Virus record (IMG/VR): IMGVR_UViG_2690316325_000011
Location: 1 to 18,073 of that record
Direction: 5' to 3' (one strand)
DNA length: 18,073 bases
Source of the DNA: a virus
Lineage: Duplodnaviria > Heunggongvirae > Uroviricota > Caudoviricetes
Shown here: positions 13,012-18,053 of the stretch, piece by piece
How positions within the stretch are numbered: position 1 is the stretch's first letter
Layout: each line of letters begins with the position of its first letter
Notes under the pieces: model-generated
What the model saw: the letters and a program-made list of their open reading frames with translations, nothing else
Told to the model about the DNA's origin: nothing
Database searches by the model: none
Made by a program: the position numbers and the translations under genes

Positions 13012-13085
13012 AAGTTCCCTCCTACGTTGTCAGGAGGTAATGGTATGCAAAGTAACTTCTCAACCGGTTATGTTGCATAAGAGAC

Positions 13086-13349: not shown

Positions 13350-13476
13350 TTTTTACCTATACAACAGTAAGTTGAACAACATCTGAGAACGGTATGCACT
13401 TTGTGATTTCCACACACACTGGTTTTGTTAATTAAAACCTGTAGCTTGCAATAAATAACGATAGTGGGCAGAAAAT

Positions 13477-13662
13477 ATGCTAATAGGCTATGTACGCATA
13501 TAGACAAATGAACAAAACACAGCTATGCAGTGAAAAGCACTTGAAAGCGCAGGATGTGAGCTAATTTTTGCGAATAAGGCGAGCAGCAAAAAGGCTGGGC
13601 ACCTTGGGTTAAAAAAGGTTCTGCGTATGCTTTCCAGAGGTGATACCCTAGTCTCGGGCTAG
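13477..13662 (+). pseudogene. Decayed 5' fragment of a Cin-like DNA invertase gene, convergent with the intact invertase
   Basis: Reads MLIGYVRI*TNEQNTAMQ*KALESAGCELIFANKASSKKAGHLGLKKVLRMLSRGDTLV with in-frame stops at 13501 and about 13531, then loses frame after about 13656. It matches the Gin/Cin N-terminus and differs from the neighbouring intact invertase (NEQNTA versus NDQNTD). Right boundary approximate. Confidence 0.6.
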
Positions 13663-13784
13663 GGACAACATTTCGAGGACAGTTTTCATTAGCGGTCAGC
13701 AGGCGCTAGATACATCGAATTGATGTGCCGCGCGATAAATGTACCTATTCTATCAAGATAAATTACACCGACGCGGCATTAGAA

Positions 13785-14357
13785 TTACAGCTCAGATTGA
13801 GTTTGGCGCTTCTCTACAGGATGATAACGATAAATCGTCGATACACCGATATCGTAAATAATTGCCAACTGTTTCCTGCTGTAGCCATTTTCGATCAACC
13901 TCGCTATTTGCTCATGTTGTTCTTTTGTCAACTTCGGGCGACGTCCGCCAATGCGTCCCTGTTCGCGTGCAGCTGCCAGTCCGGCCAGTGTTCTCTCAAC
14001 AATTAATTCACGTTCCATTTCTGCTAAAGCCCCCATGACGTGAAAAAAGAAACGCCCCATGGGTGTTGATGTGTCAATACTGTCTGTCAGACTACGGAAA
14101 TTAACACCTTTTTCCCGCAACTCCTCTATAAGCGTGATAAGGTGTTTCATACTTCTGCCAAGCCTATCCAGCTTCCAGACAACCAGCGTATCTCCTTCTG
14201 ATAACGTTCTGAGCAGCTTTTTCAAGCCTGGTCTGGCTGACTTTGTTCCGCTTATTTTATCTTCAAAAATCAGTTCACATCCTGCGCAGTTCAGTGCATT
14301 TCTTTGTAAATCTGTGTTTTGGTCATTTGTTGACACACGAATGTAGCCAATTTGCAT
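13785..14357 (-). CDS. Site-specific DNA invertase (Hin/Gin/Cin/Pin/Min family serine recombinase)
   Basis: 190 aa from ATG at 14357 (AAGAGG about 9 nt upstream; the track's 14366 start is a TTG). Catalytic N-terminus MQIGYIRVSTNDQNTDLQRNAL, core motifs GDTLVVWKLDRLGRS and SPMGRFFFHVMGALAEMERELIVERT, C-terminal HTH (GVSTIYRY). Adjacent to crossover sites. Confidence 0.93.
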   Translation of the reverse strand: MQIGYIRVSTNDQNTDLQRNALNCAGCELIFEDKISGTKSARPGLKKLLRTLSEGDTLVVWKLDRLGRSMKHLITLIEELREKGVNFRSLTDSIDTSTPMGRFFFHVMGALAEMERELIVERTLAGLAAAREQGRIGGRRPKLTKEQHEQIARLIENGYSRKQLAIIYDIGVSTIYRYHPVEKRQTQSEL

Positions 14358-14411
14358 GAAAAACAACCTCTTTGTTTAGTTAAAAATACATCGTTGGTAT
14401 AGGTAGGGATT

Positions 14412-14437
14412 AAGACTAAAACGTTGGTTTGGGGGAA
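14412..14437 (+). other. Crossover site 1 (26-bp Gin/Cin-type inversion site), in the invertase promoter region
   Basis: AAGACTAAAACG-TT-GGTTTGGGGGAA. The right half and TT core are conserved with the other sites; the left half is divergent. Lies 55 to 80 bp upstream of the invertase ATG. Confidence 0.7.
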
Positions 14438-14890
14438 GGCTCTGCACTGCCTGTTGGTGTGCCCGTTCCGTGGCCCTTAGAAACACCGCCAACGGGGTGG
14501 CTGAAATGTAACGGAGCAGCATTTTCTTCTGAAAAGTACCCAAATCTGGCAAAGGCTTACCCTACTAATAAATTGCCTGATTTACGCGGTGAATTTATTC
14601 GTGGCTGGGATGACGGACGTGGTGTGGATGCCGGGCGACAATTATTATCTTCACAGGGGGATGCAATAAGAAATATTGAGGGATTCGCAGATGGCGGGAT
14701 CGGTATGTCTTTTGATGCAATCAGAGGGGCTTTTTACGATGCAGGAACACGATCAGCGAGAATGCCGAATAACACAACTACTATAGACAAAACCGATGAC
14801 CTTGGATTCGACGCCTCTCGTGTCGTGCCAACAGCTAATGAAAACCGTCCTCGTAATATTGCCTTTAATTATATCGTAAGGGCGGCATAA
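14426..14890 (+). CDS. Promoterless tail-fibre C-terminal (receptor-binding tip) cassette A
   Basis: Coding frame begins at the first base right of the site-1 core, with no ATG or SD (track start is TTG). Conserved 5' module GEGSALPVGVPVPWP..TPPTGWLKCNGAAFSSEKYPNLAK.YPT.KLPDLRGEFIRGWDDGRG (tail-collar-like), variable middle, conserved end RPRNIAFNYIVRAA, stop TAA inside the left half of site 2. Confidence 0.8.
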   Translation, partial: GLGEGSALPVGVPVPWPLETPPTGWLKCNGAAFSSEKYPNLAKAYPTNKLPDLRGEFIRGWDDGRGVDAGRQLLSSQGDAIRNIEGFADGGIGMSFDAIRGAFYDAGTRSARMPNNTTTIDKTDDLGFDASRVVPTANENRPRNIAFNYIVRAA

Positions 14891-14909
14891 AAACGTTGGT
14901 TTGGGGGAA
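14884..14909 (+). other. Crossover site 2
   Basis: GGCATAAAAACG-TT-GGTTTGGGGGAA. The left half contains the cassette A stop codon. Confidence 0.75.
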
Positions 14910-15466
14910 GGCTCATCAGCTCAGTAGTGCCACTAACAGCACGTCTGAAGTGCTGGCCGCCACACCGAAAGCTGTCAAGGCTGCATATGACCTGGCTAAC
15001 GGGAAGTATACAGCCCAGGATGCAACCACGACACAAAAAGGGATAGTTCAGCTCAGTAGCGACACCAACAGCACTTCTGAAACATTAGCTGCAACGCCAA
15101 AAGCGGTTAAAGCTGCATACGATCTAGCAGCCGGAAAGGCACCATCCAGTCATACACATCCCTGGAATCAGATCACTGGTGTGCCAACAGCTTCATTGAC
15201 AGCGAAAGGCATCACTCAGCTCAGTAGTGCCACTAACAGCACGTCTGAAGTGCTGGCCGCTACACCGAAAGCTGTCAAGGCTGCATATGATTTGGCTAAT
15301 GGAAAGCAAGCGGCAGACGCTACGCTCACTGCTCTAGCGGCACTAGCTACCGCAGCAGATAAACTCCCTTATTTCACAGGGGTTGATCGTGCCGCGTTAA
15401 CTGCACTGACAAGTGTTGGACGTGCAATTCTTAGTAAGCCCAGTATTCAGAGCGTTCTTAATTACC
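14898..15466 (+). other. Captured fragment of a tail-fibre constant region carrying three tail-fibre repeat units
   Basis: Open frame encoding three copies of QLSS(A/D)TNSTSE(V/T)LAATPKAVKAAYDLA; nucleotide copies at 14917..14990 and 15217..15290 are identical except for one base. It ends ...LNYL at site 3. From site 2 in the cassette frame the reading is GLGEGSSAQ then stop (TAG 14925..14927), so it is not a functional cassette. Confidence 0.6.
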
Positions 15467-15480
15467 TTGGTTTAGGGGAA
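15455..15480 (+). other. Crossover site 3 (constant/variable junction type; most symmetric site)
   Basis: TTCTTAATTACC-TT-GGTTTAGGGGAA. Left half resembles Gin/Cin-family half-sites (TTC.T..A..ACC) and is coding (LNYL) with no stop, unlike sites 2, 4, 5 and 6. Confidence 0.7.
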
Positions 15481-15975
15481 GGCTCGGCGCTGCCCGTTGG
15501 TGTACCTGTTCCATGGCCCTCAGCCACACCACCAACGGGGTGGCTGAAATGTAACGGAGCAGCATTTTCTTCTGAAAAGTACCCAAATCTGGCAAAGGTT
15601 TACCCAACGTTAAAATTACCTGATTTACGCGGTGAGTTTATCCGTGGTTGGGATGATTCGAGAGGGATTGATACAGGGCGTTCATTGCTAAGTGGTCAGA
15701 CTGCAACATTTATTCGTACAGCTTTGCAGGATTATTACGGTGTCGATCTGACTACTAATGTCAAAGTAGGTATCGCTTATGCTACTGCTGATTCTGTTAT
15801 AACTGTTGGAAACCCTGCTAATCCTAAAGCAGGAGATAATAGCGATTATGTTCCAGCATCATCAGATAACTCCATAACAGGCACTCAAAGGACGGCAGAG
15901 GATAATTTTACCGGGGCATGGATATCAATGCGCCCCCGCAACGTTGCTTTTAATTACATCGTAAGGGCAGCATGA
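15469..15975 (+). CDS. Promoterless tail-fibre C-terminal cassette C (3' part of track ORF 14896..15975)
   Basis: Same conserved 5' module and RPRNVAFNYIVRAA end as the other cassettes; distinct variable middle; stop TGA inside the left half of site 4. Confidence 0.8.
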   Translation, partial: GLGEGSALPVGVPVPWPSATPPTGWLKCNGAAFSSEKYPNLAKVYPTLKLPDLRGEFIRGWDDSRGIDTGRSLLSGQTATFIRTALQDYYGVDLTTNVKVGIAYATADSVITVGNPANPKAGDNSDYVPASSDNSITGTQRTAEDNFTGAWISMRPRNVAFNYIVRAA

Positions 15976-15994
15976 AAACGTTGGTTTGGGGGAA
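15969..15994 (+). other. Crossover site 4
   Basis: AGCATGAAAACG-TT-GGTTTGGGGGAA. Confidence 0.75.
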
Positions 15995-16453
15995 GGCTCA
16001 GCATTGCCCGTTGGCGTGCCCGTTCCGTGGCCATCAGCCACACCTCCAACGGGGTGGCTGAAATGCAATGGTGCAGCATTTTCTTCTGAAAAGTACCCAA
16101 ATCTGGCAAAGGTTTACCCCACTAATAAATTGCCGGATCTACGGGGCGAATTTATTCGCGGCTGGGATGACGGGCGGGGGATTGACTCTGGCCGTAATTT
16201 ATTATCTGCACAGAATGATGCAATTCAGAATATTGTTGGTTCTTTCGGGCGTACTCAGCTTTTTAGAGATGTACTTAGTTCAGGGCCATTTAGTCAACAT
16301 GGTCAAGTATTATCTACAGGCCTAAAGGAAACGGAAATTATTGAGGGTTATGGCTCTTATAACTGGACATTCGACGCCTCTCGCTCAGTTCGTACAGCAT
16401 CTGAAACCCGCCCCCGTAATATTGCGTTTAATTATATCGTAAGGGCGGCATAA
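15983..16453 (+). CDS. Promoterless tail-fibre C-terminal cassette D
   Basis: Conserved 5' module, distinct variable middle, conserved RPRNIAFNYIVRAA end, stop TAA inside site 5. Confidence 0.8.
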   Translation, partial: GLGEGSALPVGVPVPWPSATPPTGWLKCNGAAFSSEKYPNLAKVYPTNKLPDLRGEFIRGWDDGRGIDSGRNLLSAQNDAIQNIVGSFGRTQLFRDVLSSGPFSQHGQVLSTGLKETEIIEGYGSYNWTFDASRSVRTASETRPRNIAFNYIVRAA

Positions 16454-16472
16454 AAACGTTGGTTTGGGAGAA
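16447..16472 (+). other. Crossover site 5
   Basis: GGCATAAAAACG-TT-GGTTTGGGAGAA. Confidence 0.75.
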
Positions 16473-16961
16473 GGCTCTGCATTACCTGTTGGTGTCCCTG
16501 TTCCGTGGCCTTCAGCCACTCCGCCAACAGGCTGGCTGAAATGCAACGGTGCAGCATTTTCTTCTGAAAAGTACCCAAATCTGGCAAAGGTTTACCCCAC
16601 TAATAAATTGCCGGATCTACGGGGCGAATTTATTCGCGGCTGGGATGACGGGCGGGGGATTGATCCAGGTCGCTCTATTTTAAGCGAGCAAGGATATGCA
16701 ACGGAGGATCATGCTCACGGATTACCGTCAAAATCAACCGTAGCAACTGACAGCTCAATTAATTTCTACTTTGACGAGGCATGGGCTACTAGTGGTAATA
16801 CGGGAGTTATCAGATGGGGGAACACAAGCGATGCAGGATTGCCAGCCCCTAATTATGGAACTTTTAAAACATATAAACAGTCCGTAGCTAATTTAGGTAC
16901 TGCTGGCTTAGAAACCCGCCCTCGTAATATTGCATTTAATTATATTGTGAGGGCGGATTAA
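16461..16961 (+). CDS. Promoterless tail-fibre C-terminal cassette E
   Basis: Conserved 5' module (near-identical to cassette D over roughly 120 bp), distinct variable middle containing EDHAHG, end RPRNIAFNYIVRAD. Stop lies 5 bp from the convergent tail-fibre assembly gene stop. Confidence 0.8.
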   Translation, partial: GLGEGSALPVGVPVPWPSATPPTGWLKCNGAAFSSEKYPNLAKVYPTNKLPDLRGEFIRGWDDGRGIDPGRSILSEQGYATEDHAHGLPSKSTVATDSSINFYFDEAWATSGNTGVIRWGNTSDAGLPAPNYGTFKTYKQSVANLGTAGLETRPRNIAFNYIVRAD

Positions 16962-16966
16962 TTATA

Positions 16967-17578
16967 TCAACTGGCTGTAGAAAGTTGTTTTTCAGGCCAG
17001 TTGAGATCTGGTGCCGTGGTTAAATCCATCGCGTTCAGCTCGTCTATATAATCTAGCACGGAGTTAAGCTGCGTGGTTTCTGCCTGCGTCAACTTCCGTC
17101 CAGCCCGTAATTTCAACTGAATCAGACTAATGGAATCCATCGCAGTATCAATCAATGACTGACGTTTTGTTTCTGCTGCCTCTACAGCTGCACTATGTTG
17201 AGCCTCAGTATCAACCACCCATTTCTCTCCATCCCATTTGTCGTATGGTGTTAGCGGGGCGATAGTGGTTGTATTTTCCGGATAGTCACCCAACACCGTG
17301 ATTTCTTCGGGATTCCCTGTGTCAATGCTATAGACAGTTTCGCCACGATGATCTGGCACATACTCCCATGAACTTAAATCCTCTGAACGGAGAATCGCAT
17401 AACCTGCTTTATGTGAGCCTGGAGCATCCAAACAAGAATGTGCCGGAATACCAACGCCAACAGCAAGATATTCAGTTGATGCAGAAATATATTCCCGATT
17501 ACCACCATCATAGTTATAAACGATAATGTTTCCTGCCTGTATGGCTATAAGTTCGCTATTTAATATCGCATTATCCAT
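16967..17578 (-). CDS. Tail-fibre assembly protein (Tfa/U-like chaperone)
   Basis: 203 aa; ATG overlaps the cassette F stop (TAATG), so it is translationally coupled. C-terminal region ...LDYIDELNAMDLTTAPDLNWPEKQ is typical of caudoviral tail-fibre assembly proteins as I recall. It is the only such gene in the window. Confidence 0.8.
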   Translation of the reverse strand: MDNAILNSELIAIQAGNIIVYNYDGGNREYISASTEYLAVGVGIPAHSCLDAPGSHKAGYAILRSEDLSSWEYVPDHRGETVYSIDTGNPEEITVLGDYPENTTTIAPLTPYDKWDGEKWVVDTEAQHSAAVEAAETKRQSLIDTAMDSISLIQLKLRAGRKLTQAETTQLNSVLDYIDELNAMDLTTAPDLNWPEKQLSTAS

Positions 17579-18039
17579 TATGCTGCTCTCACAATATAAT
17601 TGAAGGCAATGTTACGTGGGCGGGTTTCATTCCCCCCAGATAACTCCGTTCTGTATTGACTGGTAAATTTACCATTAATCGCTCCTTCTTGGACGGCGTT
17701 ATCTGTCGACAACAGGCTATCCCCCCCTCTGTCATTTGGCACCAATACCGTGTTATCCCACGCGTCCCATGACCGAATATTATGATAATGACTTCCTGTT
17801 AACCACCCCTGTATGCTTAAGATGACCCTTCCCGCATCCACACCTCGCCCATCATCCCAACCACGGATAAACTCACCGCGTAAATCAGGTAATTTTAACG
17901 TTGGGTAAACCTTTGCCAGATTTGGGTACTTTTCAGAAGAAAATGCTGCGCCATTGCATTTCAGCCACCCCGTTGGCGGTGTTTCTAAGGGCCACGGAAC
18001 GGGCACGCCAACGGGCAGTGCAGAGCCTTCCCCCAAACC
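17578..18039 (-). CDS. Tail-fibre C-terminal cassette F (minus-strand array, followed by the assembly gene)
   Basis: Begins at the core of the inverted site 6; conserved 5' module, distinct variable middle, conserved RPRNIAFNYIVRAA end. Its 5' module is a patchwork of A-like and C-like sequence. Confidence 0.8.
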   Translation of the reverse strand, partial: GLGEGSALPVGVPVPWPLETPPTGWLKCNGAAFSSEKYPNLAKVYPTLKLPDLRGEFIRGWDDGRGVDAGRVILSIQGWLTGSHYHNIRSWDAWDNTVLVPNDRGGDSLLSTDNAVQEGAINGKFTSQYRTELSGGNETRPRNIAFNYIVRAA

Positions 18040-18053
18040 AACGTTTTTATGCC
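18028..18053 (-). other. Crossover site 6, inverted relative to sites 1-5
   Basis: Reverse complement reads GGCATAAAAACG-TT-GGTTTGGGGGAA. Its left half contains the stop codon of a further minus-strand cassette. Confidence 0.75.

What the first reader, a model, noticed from the sequence alone, without database searches (positions are those of the whole stretch)
16961..17578. One tail-fibre assembly gene for at least six tips, convergent with cassette E and no terminator
In Mu each alternative tip has its own chaperone (U and U'). Here only cassette F is followed by an assembly gene, and all cassettes share the C-terminus RPRNIAFNYIVRAA. One chaperone may therefore serve every tip through that conserved tail, or other chaperones lie outside the window. 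Cassette E and the assembly gene converge with only 5 bp between their stops.
Basis: inference. Interest (0 to 1): 0.45.

Follow-up and report, generated by a model that had tools for sequence, protein, structure and literature searches.

The report
One chaperone gene, many fibre tips
A P1-like phage-plasmid carries a shuffling array of at least six alternative tail-fibre tips but only one fibre-assembly chaperone gene; comparison with hundreds of relatives suggests that this chaperone recognises the constant scaffold shared by all tips, so the layout is a known, fairly ordinary design.

Summary
Bases 16967-17578 (- strand) encode a 203-aa lambda-Tfa/Mu-U family assembly protein (Pfam Caudo_TAP, 3e-30). 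Its start overlaps the stop of tip F (TAATG). Its stop lies 5 bp from the stop of convergent tip E, with no terminator between them.

The locus is a p15B Min-type multiple-inversion region: a serine invertase, six cix-like crossover sites, five complete tips and one cut tip.

All tips share the T4 gp37/gp12 "collar" scaffold: about 75 constant N-terminal residues, a variable head, and the tail RPRN(I/V)AFNYIVRA(A/D).

Sampled complete relatives (92-99 kb) show one Tfa match per record, so no hidden chaperone was found.

In other prophages, Tfa proteins 79-80% identical to this one directly follow tips of 16 unrelated head classes. Tfa stays up to 98% identical where heads are about 20% identical. 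A second chaperone type there follows non-collar tips.

One generalist chaperone for the constant scaffold is therefore the best-supported reading, but it is inferred, not shown.

One point is unexplained. The F-tfa-E unit flips, and in 9 of 26 related arrays tfa is antisense to the fibre operon. No P1-type late promoter was found in the inversion region.

This is a new member of a known kind, of modest interest.

The parts
13385..13655 (+). psi-cin: remnant of a P1-type cin promoter region and 5' coding end, convergent with the active invertase gene. A stop codon at codon 8 disrupts it.
   Evidence: It is 89% identical to the P1 cin upstream region and 5' end. tblastn matches invertase residues 4-62 at 61%. 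A match to the P1 enhancer lies at 13504-13566.
13785..14366 (-). Min/Cin/Pin-type serine DNA invertase. The likely start is the ATG at 14357. It has the same orientation as the constant fibre gene, unlike P1 cin.
   Evidence: Pfam Resolvase 2.2e-51 and HTH_7 3.5e-15. Bases 14299-14333 are 88.6% identical to the P1 cin enhancer. P1 orientation.
14419..14430 (+). Crossover (mix) site core 1, at the 5' edge of tip A.
   Evidence: cix-like core AAACGTTGGTTT.
14429..14890 (+). Tip cassette A: collar scaffold with a DAIRNI-type head.
   Evidence: Pfam Collar 4.2e-15; alignment.
14891..14902 (+). Crossover site core 2.
14896..15471 (+). Copy of the last ~190 codons of the constant fibre shaft (three Phage_fiber_2 repeats). 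It is joined to a mix site one base out of the tip reading frame, so it is probably a dead remnant.
   Evidence: Pfam Phage_fiber_2 3.1e-54. Frame analysis and comparison with the L001 fibre gene.
15464..15474 (+). Crossover site core 3. The left half-site is like the constant fibre gene (...NYLGLGEGS).
   Evidence: An 11-12 nt perfect match to the P1 cixL/cixR core.
15472..15975 (+). Tip cassette B.
   Evidence: Pfam Collar. It is 99% identical to the tip fused to the constant fibre gene in L001.
15976..15987 (+). Crossover site core 4.
15986..16453 (+). Tip cassette C.
   Evidence: Pfam Collar 8.7e-15.
16454..16465 (+). Crossover site core 5. It forms one end of the indivisible E-tfa-F unit.
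16464..16961 (+). Tip cassette E. It carries an HAH motif, ends ...NYIVRAD, and is convergent with tfa.
   Evidence: Pfam Collar 1.2e-14.
16962..16966 (.). 5-bp spacer (TTATA) between the stops of E and tfa. It holds no hairpin and no crossover site.
16967..17578 (-). tfa, the only tail-fibre assembly (chaperone) gene, 203 aa. N-terminal module about residues 1-120, helical C-terminal module about residues 121-197.
   Evidence: Pfam Caudo_TAP 3.2e-30. PHROG N- and C-modules. AlphaFold2 helices at 125-183 with pLDDT about 90.
17578..18036 (-). Tip cassette F. It carries an HYH motif. Its stop overlaps the tfa start (TAATG).
   Evidence: Pfam Collar 6.8e-15 and a weak S_tail_recep_bd match. PDB sequence matches to T4 gp37 (2XGF) and gp12.
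18035..18046 (-). Crossover site core 6, inverted relative to sites 1-5. It forms the other end of the E-tfa-F unit.
   Evidence: (I3-I5)
18047..18073 (-). 3' end (FNYIVRAA plus stop) of a further tip on the tfa strand, cut by the window edge. It is probably the tip currently fused to the constant fibre gene.
   Evidence: Repeats I5 and I8. By analogy with L001, L081 and L086.

Best explanation
The gene at 16967-17578 is the single Tfa-family chaperone of a p15B Min-type multiple-inversion tail-fibre locus on a P1-like phage-plasmid.

A serine invertase recombines cix-like sites that sit at the 5' edge of every tip cassette. Any tip can thereby be fused to the constant fibre gene, which lies beyond the right end of the window and reads leftwards.

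Every tip is built on the same T4 gp37/gp12-like collar scaffold: about 75 constant N-terminal residues, a variable receptor-binding head, and a constant C-terminal strand RPRNIAFNYIVRA.

Inferred: Tfa binds this constant scaffold through its N-terminal module and brings three chains together through its helical C-terminal module. One chaperone then suffices for all heads.

Inferred: tfa has no P1-type late promoter of its own. It is made by read-through of the late fibre operon whenever the indivisible unit [site-F-tfa | E-site] points the same way as the fibre gene. Translation would start at a purine-rich Shine-Dalgarno-like stretch inside the conserved 3' end of the preceding tip.

Shown here: gene identities, sites, unit structure, single copy in the sampled relatives, natural isomers, and the lack of co-variation between Tfa and heads.

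Not shown: binding, chaperone requirement and expression.
For: Identity:
- Caudo_TAP 3.2e-30 and PHROG 105 at 1.4e-92.
- 2491 homologues, and those that carry a source name are called tail fiber assembly protein.

Inversion system:
- Resolvase plus HTH_7 invertase.
- Six cix-like cores, five in one orientation and one inverted.
- The same F-tfa-E unit occurs in both orientations in relatives.

Single copy:
- One tblastn match per record in all ten sampled records with Tfa 98-100% identical to this one, eight of them complete 92-99 kb P1-like plasmids.
- One tfa per array in L001-L021 and L081-L091, except the mirror duplicate in L014.

Constant scaffold:
- 65 invariant positions in the N-terminal part and 12 in the tail across the five tips.
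- T4 gp37 (2XGF) matches both the collar part and the tail NIAFNYIVRLA.

Generalist chaperone:
- In 70 loci, Tfa directly follows tips of 16 head clusters (below 60% identity). In nearly all the tail is RPRNIAFN[YF]IVRAA or a one- or two-residue variant, and all have the TAATG overlap.
- Tfa is 98% identical between L055 and L058, whose heads are 20% identical.
- Tips 84-93% identical to B, C and E, and 68% identical to A, are each followed by this Tfa type.
- In the same prophages a second chaperone shares only the C-terminal module. It follows non-collar tips ending ...WWAVGE...LAIGY or ...IAFGD. The N-module therefore tracks scaffold class, not head.

Modular Tfa design:
- A variable N-domain binds the fibre and a conserved C-domain trimerises, as reported for Mu Tfa and Pam3 gp25 (PMC9608196).
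- PHROG modules and the AlphaFold2 helices at 125-183 agree with this.

Precedents:
- P1 U scored as essential in a CRISPRi knock-down screen (PMC10695390, Table 2).
- From memory, not checked here: lambda Tfa can replace T4 gp38 in gp37 assembly (Montag and Henning 1987; Hashemolhosseini et al. 1996).
Against: - There is no physical or structural evidence for the contact. The AlphaFold2 model of a tip failed (pLDDT 34.6). The Tfa N-module is poorly modelled. No PDB relative was found by sequence or by fold.
- In the multi-tip arrays tfa nearly always follows an F-type tip (L009 is the exception). This would also fit an F-specific helper.
- In 9 of 26 arrays tfa is antisense to the fibre operon, including an intact fibre-E fusion in L006. 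No AAGTTACTT-N4-TANNNT late promoter lies in the inversion region. Either Tfa is dispensable in those states or its supply is unexplained.
- Conservation of the tip 3' end in arrays could partly reflect overlap with the left half of the next crossover site and gene conversion between cassettes.
Confidence: 0.68

Rival explanations
1. Tfa serves only tip F, its translationally coupled neighbour. The other tips trimerise on their own or with a different constant factor, such as the gpR homologue encoded upstream of the fibre gene, or a host chaperone.
For: In the multi-tip arrays tfa is almost always directly downstream of an F-type tip. A 144-aa gpR homologue, annotated in P1 as tail-fibre structure or assembly, is constant in the relatives examined. 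Arrays with tfa antisense exist.
Against: Tips 84-93% identical to B, C and E, and 68% identical to A, are each immediately followed by this same Tfa type in other prophages, with the same TAATG coupling. L009 has a different head in front of a Tfa that is 93% identical overall, and 96% in the N-module, to the one in L008.
Confidence: 0.12
2. The other tips have their own chaperone genes, which lie outside the 18-kb window.
For: The window ends 37 bp beyond tip F. The constant fibre gene and its upstream genes are not in it.
Against: All ten sampled records with Tfa 98-100% identical, eight of them complete 92-99 kb plasmids, showed a single tblastn match to Tfa at E<=1e-3. Maps of L001, L081, L082 and L086-L091 show nothing but tips between the invertase and the fibre gene. 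A chaperone with no sequence similarity to Tfa would have been missed.
Confidence: 0.05
3. The array is partly decayed. A second tfa, once convergent with the present one as in the Mu G and P1 C segments, was deleted. Tip E and perhaps other cassettes are then non-functional relics carried along by the inversion system.
For: Two-state relatives have tip-tfa | tfa'-tip'. The window holds one clearly dead piece, the out-of-frame shaft copy at 14896-15471. Sequence differences between close relatives lie only in the shared 5' collar part, so there is no in-situ evidence of selection on the heads.
Against: All five tips are intact ORFs in frame with their crossover sites. The same [F-tfa | convergent tip] unit is kept in two lineages with 83% identical Tfa: P1-like plasmids and prophages whose fibre gene has a P2 H-like N-terminus. 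E compared with E-like tips in other prophages gives dN/dS of 0.11-0.15.
Confidence: 0.1

Closest known systems
Min multiple DNA inversion region of plasmid p15B (E. coli 15T-; Sandmeier, Iida, Arber et al. 1990-1992; GenBank X62121)
   Same: It is a P1-related plasmid with a Din-family serine invertase and six or more crossover sites at the 5' ends of alternative 3' parts of one tail-fibre gene, generating many isomers. pMCR_SCKP-LL83, whose region is reported as 99% identical to p15B min, likewise lists one tfaE among many small cassettes (PMC5786510). P1 annotation notes place a cin-like remnant next to min in p15B, matching psi-cin here.
   Different: The set and order of cassettes differ. 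The best database matches cover 80% or less of the region at 95-97% identity. The primary p15B papers and the X62121 record could not be read here, so whether they discuss the single tfa is unknown to me.
P1 C segment and Mu G segment (Sv-U | U'-Sv')
   Same: Both use an invertase-driven switch of the 3' part of the tail-fibre gene. In both, a Caudo_TAP chaperone follows the tip and the arrangement inside the invertible DNA is convergent.
   Different: - P1 has two sites and two tips, each tip with its own chaperone.
- P1 has a hairpin terminator (AAGGCCCG-ATAG-CGGGCCTT followed by a T-run) in the 28-bp U'/U spacer.
- P1 cin points into the segment.
- P1 tips are not collar-type: they match Gp34_trimer and gp37_C.
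- P1 U and U' show no significant BLASTP similarity to this Tfa.
- Here there are at least six sites, one chaperone and no terminator, and the invertase is co-oriented with the fibre operon.
T4 gp37 tip with gp38, and lambda Stf with Tfa
   Same: Tip F matches the gp37 collar part and its C-terminal NIAFNYIVRLA (PDB 2XGF), and also gp12. gp37 needs a dedicated chaperone, thought to bring the C-terminal ends together (PMC3004832). From memory: lambda Tfa can substitute for gp38, which is a precedent for one chaperone acting on different tips that share this scaffold.
   Different: The heads here are short, about 65-90 residues, and lack the long iron-binding needle. Only E and F have a single HxH motif. 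The chaperone here is a Caudo_TAP protein, not a gp38 homologue.
Mu Tfa and Pam3 gp25 modular chaperones (North et al. 2019; PMC9608196)
   Same: All have two modules: a variable N-terminal fibre-binding domain and a conserved helical C-terminal trimerisation domain. Here the C-module alone is shared with the second chaperone type in the related prophages.
   Different: No detectable sequence or fold match to the solved Mu Tfa structure. The contact site on a collar-type tip is unknown.
R64 shufflon (Rci, pilV C-terminal segments)
   Same: It is a clustered multiple-inversion system that swaps the C-terminal end of one adhesin gene among several alternatives. This comparison rests on my own knowledge.
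   Different: It uses a tyrosine recombinase and a pilus adhesin, and no dedicated assembly chaperone is involved.

Membership tests
Tail-fibre assembly proteins (lambda Tfa / Mu U / P1 U; Pfam PF02413 Caudo_TAP) | Profile match above the curated threshold. | tested here: met
   105.4 bits against a cut-off of 22.1, E=3.2e-30, residues 78-197. PHROG 105 at 1.4e-92.
Tail-fibre assembly proteins (lambda Tfa / Mu U / P1 U; Pfam PF02413 Caudo_TAP) | Encoded immediately 3' of a fibre tip, co-oriented and coupled to it. | tested here: met
   TAATG overlap with tip F. The same overlap is found in all 70 related loci analysed.
Tail-fibre assembly proteins (lambda Tfa / Mu U / P1 U; Pfam PF02413 Caudo_TAP) | Two modules: a variable N-terminal domain and a conserved helical C-terminal domain. 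| tested here: met
   PHROG N-modules cover residues 1-108 and 1-137; C-modules cover 121-197. The second chaperone type shares only residues ~120-195. AlphaFold2 helices at 125-183 have pLDDT about 90, but the N part is poorly modelled.
Tail-fibre assembly proteins (lambda Tfa / Mu U / P1 U; Pfam PF02413 Caudo_TAP) | Binds the fibre C-terminal region and is needed for trimerisation. | not testable with these tools
   No multimer modelling or experiment was available. The tip model failed.
Din-family invertase systems, p15B Min multiple-inversion type | Serine invertase with a resolvase catalytic domain and a C-terminal HTH. | tested here: met
   Resolvase 2.2e-51 and HTH_7 3.5e-15.
Din-family invertase systems, p15B Min multiple-inversion type | More than two cix/gix-like crossover sites, in both orientations, at the 5' ends of alternative 3' gene parts. 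| tested here: met
   Six cores matching the P1 cix core: five in + orientation and one in - orientation. Inverted repeats I1-I5.
Din-family invertase systems, p15B Min multiple-inversion type | Recombinational enhancer within the 5' part of the invertase gene. | tested here: inconclusive
   35 nt at 14299-14333 are 88.6% identical to part of the annotated P1 cin enhancer. Fis binding was not tested.
Din-family invertase systems, p15B Min multiple-inversion type | Isomeric arrangements of the same segments in nature. | tested here: met
   The F-tfa-E unit is co-oriented with the fibre gene or invertase in 17 arrays and inverted in 9. Cassette order varies.
Collar-type fibre tips (T4 gp37/gp12-like; Pfam PF07484 Collar) | Collar profile match in the N-terminal part of the tip. 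| tested here: met
   E-values from 4e-15 to 3e-14 for all five tips.
Collar-type fibre tips (T4 gp37/gp12-like; Pfam PF07484 Collar) | C-terminal strand ...NIAFNYI(V/I)(R/K) following the head, as in gp37 and gp12. | tested here: met
   phmmer aligns the tail to gp37 residues 221-242 of 2XGF (NIAFNYIVRLA) and to gp12 (NISLNYIIK).
Collar-type fibre tips (T4 gp37/gp12-like; Pfam PF07484 Collar) | Three-dimensional collar fold, with the tail packed against the N-terminal part. | tested here: inconclusive
   The AlphaFold2 monomer model has pLDDT 34.6 and is unusable.
Two-state invertible fibre segments (Mu G, P1 C) | Exactly two inverted sites flanking two tip-chaperone pairs. | tested here: not met
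   At least six sites, at least six tips and one chaperone. P1 layout.
Two-state invertible fibre segments (Mu G, P1 C) | Terminator between the convergent gene sets, as in P1. | tested here: not met
   P1 has a hairpin plus T-run in the 28-bp U'/U spacer. Here the spacer is 5 bp with no hairpin.

The most novel reading that the evidence does not exclude
Chaperone supply is gated by orientation. Because tfa is locked convergent to tip E, every genome that expresses E transcribes tfa antisense, as did about a third of the related arrays surveyed. The region has no terminator and no late promoter of its own.

The invertase gene sits downstream of the fibre operon, co-oriented with it and with nothing to stop read-through, unlike P1. 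Late transcription could therefore boost inversion among the replicating copies in an induced cell. Tfa made from some copies would then act in trans on fibres from all isomers, and one burst would release particles with mixed tips.

Alternatively, E-class tips assemble without Tfa.
Probability: 0.15. Interest if true: 0.6.

Novelty: new member of a known kind. Interest (0 to 1): 0.3.

Why it matters
If one chaperone recognises the constant collar scaffold, receptor-binding heads can be added, swapped or shuffled without carrying a matching chaperone each time. That would explain how arrays of 3 to 11 tips can grow around a single tfa. It would also give a practical rule for engineering host range: exchange only the head between the conserved N-terminal collar part and the RPRNIAFNYIVRA tail, and keep the resident Tfa. 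The antisense state raises a small, testable question about how expression of accessory genes is kept up in shuffling loci.

Tried and rejected
1. The primary p15B papers (PMID 1534556, PMC206102, PMC329034, PMC53420) and the P1 genome paper (PMC523184) are not held. What I say about them is from memory or from citing papers.
2. An AlphaFold2 model of a tip from the five window tips gave pLDDT 34.6 and is unusable.
3. An AlphaFold2 model of Tfa gave mean pLDDT 64, with only the C-terminal helices confident. Foldseek against the PDB gave no match at E<=0.001. phmmer of Tfa against PDB sequences gave nothing.
4. A search for a P1-type late promoter (AAGTTACTT-N4-TANNNT, derived from P1 LPs and LPdar) found only LPdar at 13040-13058 plus a 2-mismatch hit at 3392-3410 that is likely chance. 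Nothing lay in the inversion region.
5. The sigma-70 scan gave fewer hits than shuffled sequence, so there is no evidence for a tfa promoter.
6. I first read dN/dS of 0.03-0.05 for tip E among close relatives as purifying selection in place. All the differences lie in the first ~200 nt shared by every cassette, while the heads are identical. This is gene conversion, so the inference was withdrawn.
7. The phage records vB_EcoM-673R5 and vB_EcoM-813R1 were examined for the state present in virion-derived genomes. Genes there are fragmented and the region is not interpretable.
8. I considered the psi-cin promoter as a source of tfa transcripts in the antisense state. No psi-cin fragment was detected in most arrays of the second lineage, which keeps the same single-tfa design. 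It cannot be a general answer.
Full report
**What is at the coordinates**

The window is part of a P1-like phage-plasmid. It carries ssb, a ddrB-like gene, ORFs collinear with P1 ddrA, darA, hdf and lydB, LydA-type holins, and a perfect copy of the P1 late promoter LPdar at 13040-13058.

The ORF at 16967-17578 on the - strand encodes 203 aa. It is a tail-fibre assembly protein: Pfam Caudo_TAP at E=3.2e-30 and PHROG 105 at 1.4e-92. It has 2491 homologues at E<=1e-5, and those that carry a source name are called tail fiber assembly protein.

Its ATG overlaps the stop of tip F (17578-18036) as TAATG. Its stop lies 5 bp (TTATA, 16962-16966) from the stop of the convergent tip E (16464-16961). No terminator-like hairpin lies there.

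**The surrounding system**

To the left lies a serine invertase at 13785-14366 on the - strand (Resolvase 2.2e-51, HTH_7 3.5e-15).

Six sequences resembling the P1 cix core (AAACGTTGGTTT or AAACCTTGGTTT) sit exactly at the 5' edge of each cassette. Five are in one orientation, at 14419, 14891, 15464, 15976 and 16454. One is inverted, at 18035-18046. There is no site between E and tfa, or between F and tfa. The stretch [site-E> <tfa <F-site] is therefore one indivisible invertible unit.

In complete relatives the constant fibre gene lies beyond tip F and reads towards the invertase. A tip is fused to it in frame at ...DYLGLGEGSALPVG.

This is the architecture described for the Min region of plasmid p15B. 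A plasmid whose region is reported as 99% identical to p15B min also lists a single tfaE among many small cassettes (PMC5786510). The original p15B papers could not be read here.

**What the tips are**

All five complete tips match Pfam Collar. Aligned, they share 65 invariant positions within the first 76 residues. A head of about 65-90 residues with almost no conservation follows. All end in the tail RPRN(I/V)AFNYIVRA(A/D).

Tip F matches the solved T4 long-fibre tip gp37 (2XGF) in two places: the collar part, and the extreme C-terminus (NIAFNYIVRLA). It also matches the short fibre gp12. E and F carry one HxH motif each; A, B and C do not.

I recall that the gp37 needle is a six-stranded antiparallel structure built from three chains. 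If so, each chain runs out and back, and the tail would return to the collar. That is my knowledge of the published structure and was not tested here, because the AlphaFold2 tip model failed.

**Is there another chaperone?**

All ten sampled plasmid records whose Tfa is 98-100% identical to this one gave one tblastn match per record at E<=1e-3. Eight of them are complete 92-99 kb P1-like plasmids; 82 records in all fall in the >=99% band.

In the mapped arrays of this type there are 3 to 11 tips and a single tfa. The one exception is L014, where a second copy is a mirror-image duplicate that may be an assembly artefact.

A 144-aa homologue of P1 gpR lies upstream of the fibre gene in the relatives examined, and in them it is the same protein. 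P1 annotates gpR as tail-fibre structure or assembly. A chaperone unrelated in sequence to Tfa would not have been detected.

**Does one chaperone fit all tips?**

The IMG/VR scan returned 597 loci that encode a relative of this Tfa, and 80 were examined.

In ordinary 20-58 kb prophage contigs, a 200-aa Tfa 77-82% identical to this one directly follows a collar-type tip, always with the TAATG overlap.

The tips in front of tfa fall into 16 head clusters at a 60% identity threshold. Between clusters, heads are typically 17-30% identical. In nearly all of them the tail is RPRNIAFN[YF]IVRAA or a one- or two-residue variant.

Tfa does not follow the head:
- L055 and L058 have Tfa 98% identical and heads 20% identical.
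- L025 and L043 have Tfa 97% identical and heads 25% identical.

Tips 84-91% identical to B, 93% to C, 84-85% to E and 68% to A are each found immediately in front of this Tfa type.

Many of the same prophages carry a second, convergent chaperone that shares only residues ~120-195 with this Tfa (32-40% identical). In the eight loci examined, that second chaperone follows non-collar tips with quite different ends...SMNYSWWAVGE...AMFLAIGY and ...FAYWIAFGD.

So the N-terminal module of the chaperone tracks the scaffold class of the tip, not its receptor-binding head. This fits the modular picture reported for Mu Tfa and Pam3 gp25, in which a variable N-domain binds the fibre and a conserved helical C-domain trimerises (PMC9608196). 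It also fits the module boundaries seen here.

P1 itself is a poor comparator. Its Sv and Sv' tips are not collar-type, and U and U' are not significantly similar to this Tfa by BLASTP.

**How it most likely works**

- Shown: the invertase, the sites and the natural isomers.
- Inferred: the late fibre promoter lies upstream of R and S, as LPs does in P1. Transcripts run through the fused tip and on through any silent cassettes, which are only 5-16 bp apart and have no terminators.
- Inferred: when the F-tfa-E unit points the same way as the fibre gene, tfa is on that transcript. It would be translated from a purine-rich stretch in the conserved tip 3' end (GAGAGCAGCATAATG).
- Inferred: Tfa then binds the constant collar or tail of whichever tip is fused, and nucleates the trimer.

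In this window tfa has that sense orientation. Another cassette end lies just upstream of F, so F itself is probably silent here.

**What remains unexplained**

Among 26 single-tfa arrays, tfa is co-oriented with the fibre gene or invertase in 17 and inverted in 9. L006 has an intact fibre-E fusion ORF with tfa antisense immediately behind it. L011 and L018 show the same state with other tips.

E can never be expressed with tfa in sense. Yet E-like tips elsewhere have their own tfa directly downstream.

No P1-type late promoter lies in the inversion region, and sigma-70-like matches are no more frequent than in shuffled sequence.

P1 differs on two points that bear on this. It has a hairpin terminator between U' and U, and its cin points into the segment. 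Here the invertase is downstream of the fibre operon and co-oriented with it. Late read-through into the invertase gene is therefore possible, but this is speculative.

**Comparison and novelty**

The locus is a further member of the p15B Min type of multiple-inversion fibre locus. The same single-tfa design also occurs in prophages whose fibre gene has a P2 H-like N-terminus (Tfa 83% identical).

The idea that one chaperone serves many tips agrees with known chaperone modularity. It also agrees with the old finding, recalled from memory, that lambda Tfa can replace T4 gp38. A specialist would not be surprised.

The comparative evidence that Tfa is indifferent to the head, and the antisense-state puzzle, are the parts worth a modest follow-up.

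Noticed in passing
window 13385-13655 (+): psi-cin: a remnant 89% identical to the P1 cin promoter region, Shine-Dalgarno and first codons, with a stop at codon 8. It also holds a copy of the cin enhancer at 13504-13566. It points at the 3' end of the active invertase gene, so transcripts from it would be antisense to that gene.
   Followed up: partly
window 14896-15471 (+): A copy of the last ~190 codons of the constant fibre shaft (three Phage_fiber_2 repeats) is joined to a crossover site one base out of the tip frame. A fibre gene fused there would read ...LGLGEGSSAQ and then stop. It looks like the product of an aberrant recombination. Tip B behind it has its own normal site.
   Followed up: partly
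window tips E and F compared with L001-L007, L081 and L082: Among close relatives tfa is almost identical (dS about 0.007), while E and F show dS of 0.02-0.29. All the differences sit in the first ~200 nt, the collar part shared by every cassette. The heads are identical. This is the signature of gene conversion between cassettes.
   Followed up: yes
L001, L081, L086-L089 and L091 (constant fibre gene): The fibre gene varies from 559 to 974 codons between near-identical plasmids. L001, the only one translated here, has a tandem repeat unit of exactly 100 aa, present in about five copies. Shaft length therefore appears to be polymorphic.
   Followed up: no
L014 5640-9709: Two copies of F-tfa are arranged as a mirror image around about position 7570, with both F copies truncated at the crossover site. 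This is either a palindromic duplication made by the invertase or an assembly artefact from mixed isomers.
   Followed up: no
L083 (phage P1) 5819-5848: P1 has a GC-rich hairpin followed by a T-run (AAGGCCCG-ATAG-CGGGCCTT-AATTTTTATT) in the 28-bp spacer between the convergent U' and U genes. The window has nothing comparable between E and tfa.
   Followed up: yes
L008-L021, e.g. L011 9623-11278 and L018 8622-10247: A second lineage of single-tfa multi-tip arrays (Tfa 83% identical) is attached to a fibre gene with a P2 H-like N-terminus (MTVKYYAILTNQGAARLANA...), mostly on contigs of 20-38 kb. The invertase, tip array and tfa module has therefore moved between phage types.
   Followed up: partly
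window 13765-13779 (-): A terminator-like hairpin lies directly after the invertase stop codon. It is the first such feature downstream of the fibre operon on that strand, apart from a likely chance hit inside tfa at 17442-17455.
   Followed up: no
L084 and L085 (phages vB_EcoM-673R5 and vB_EcoM-813R1): In these deposited phage genomes the invertase and fibre genes are split into fragments (Hin1/Hin2, several 'tail protein (Fragment)' entries). This suggests sequencing errors or mixed isomers in the assemblies.
   Followed up: no
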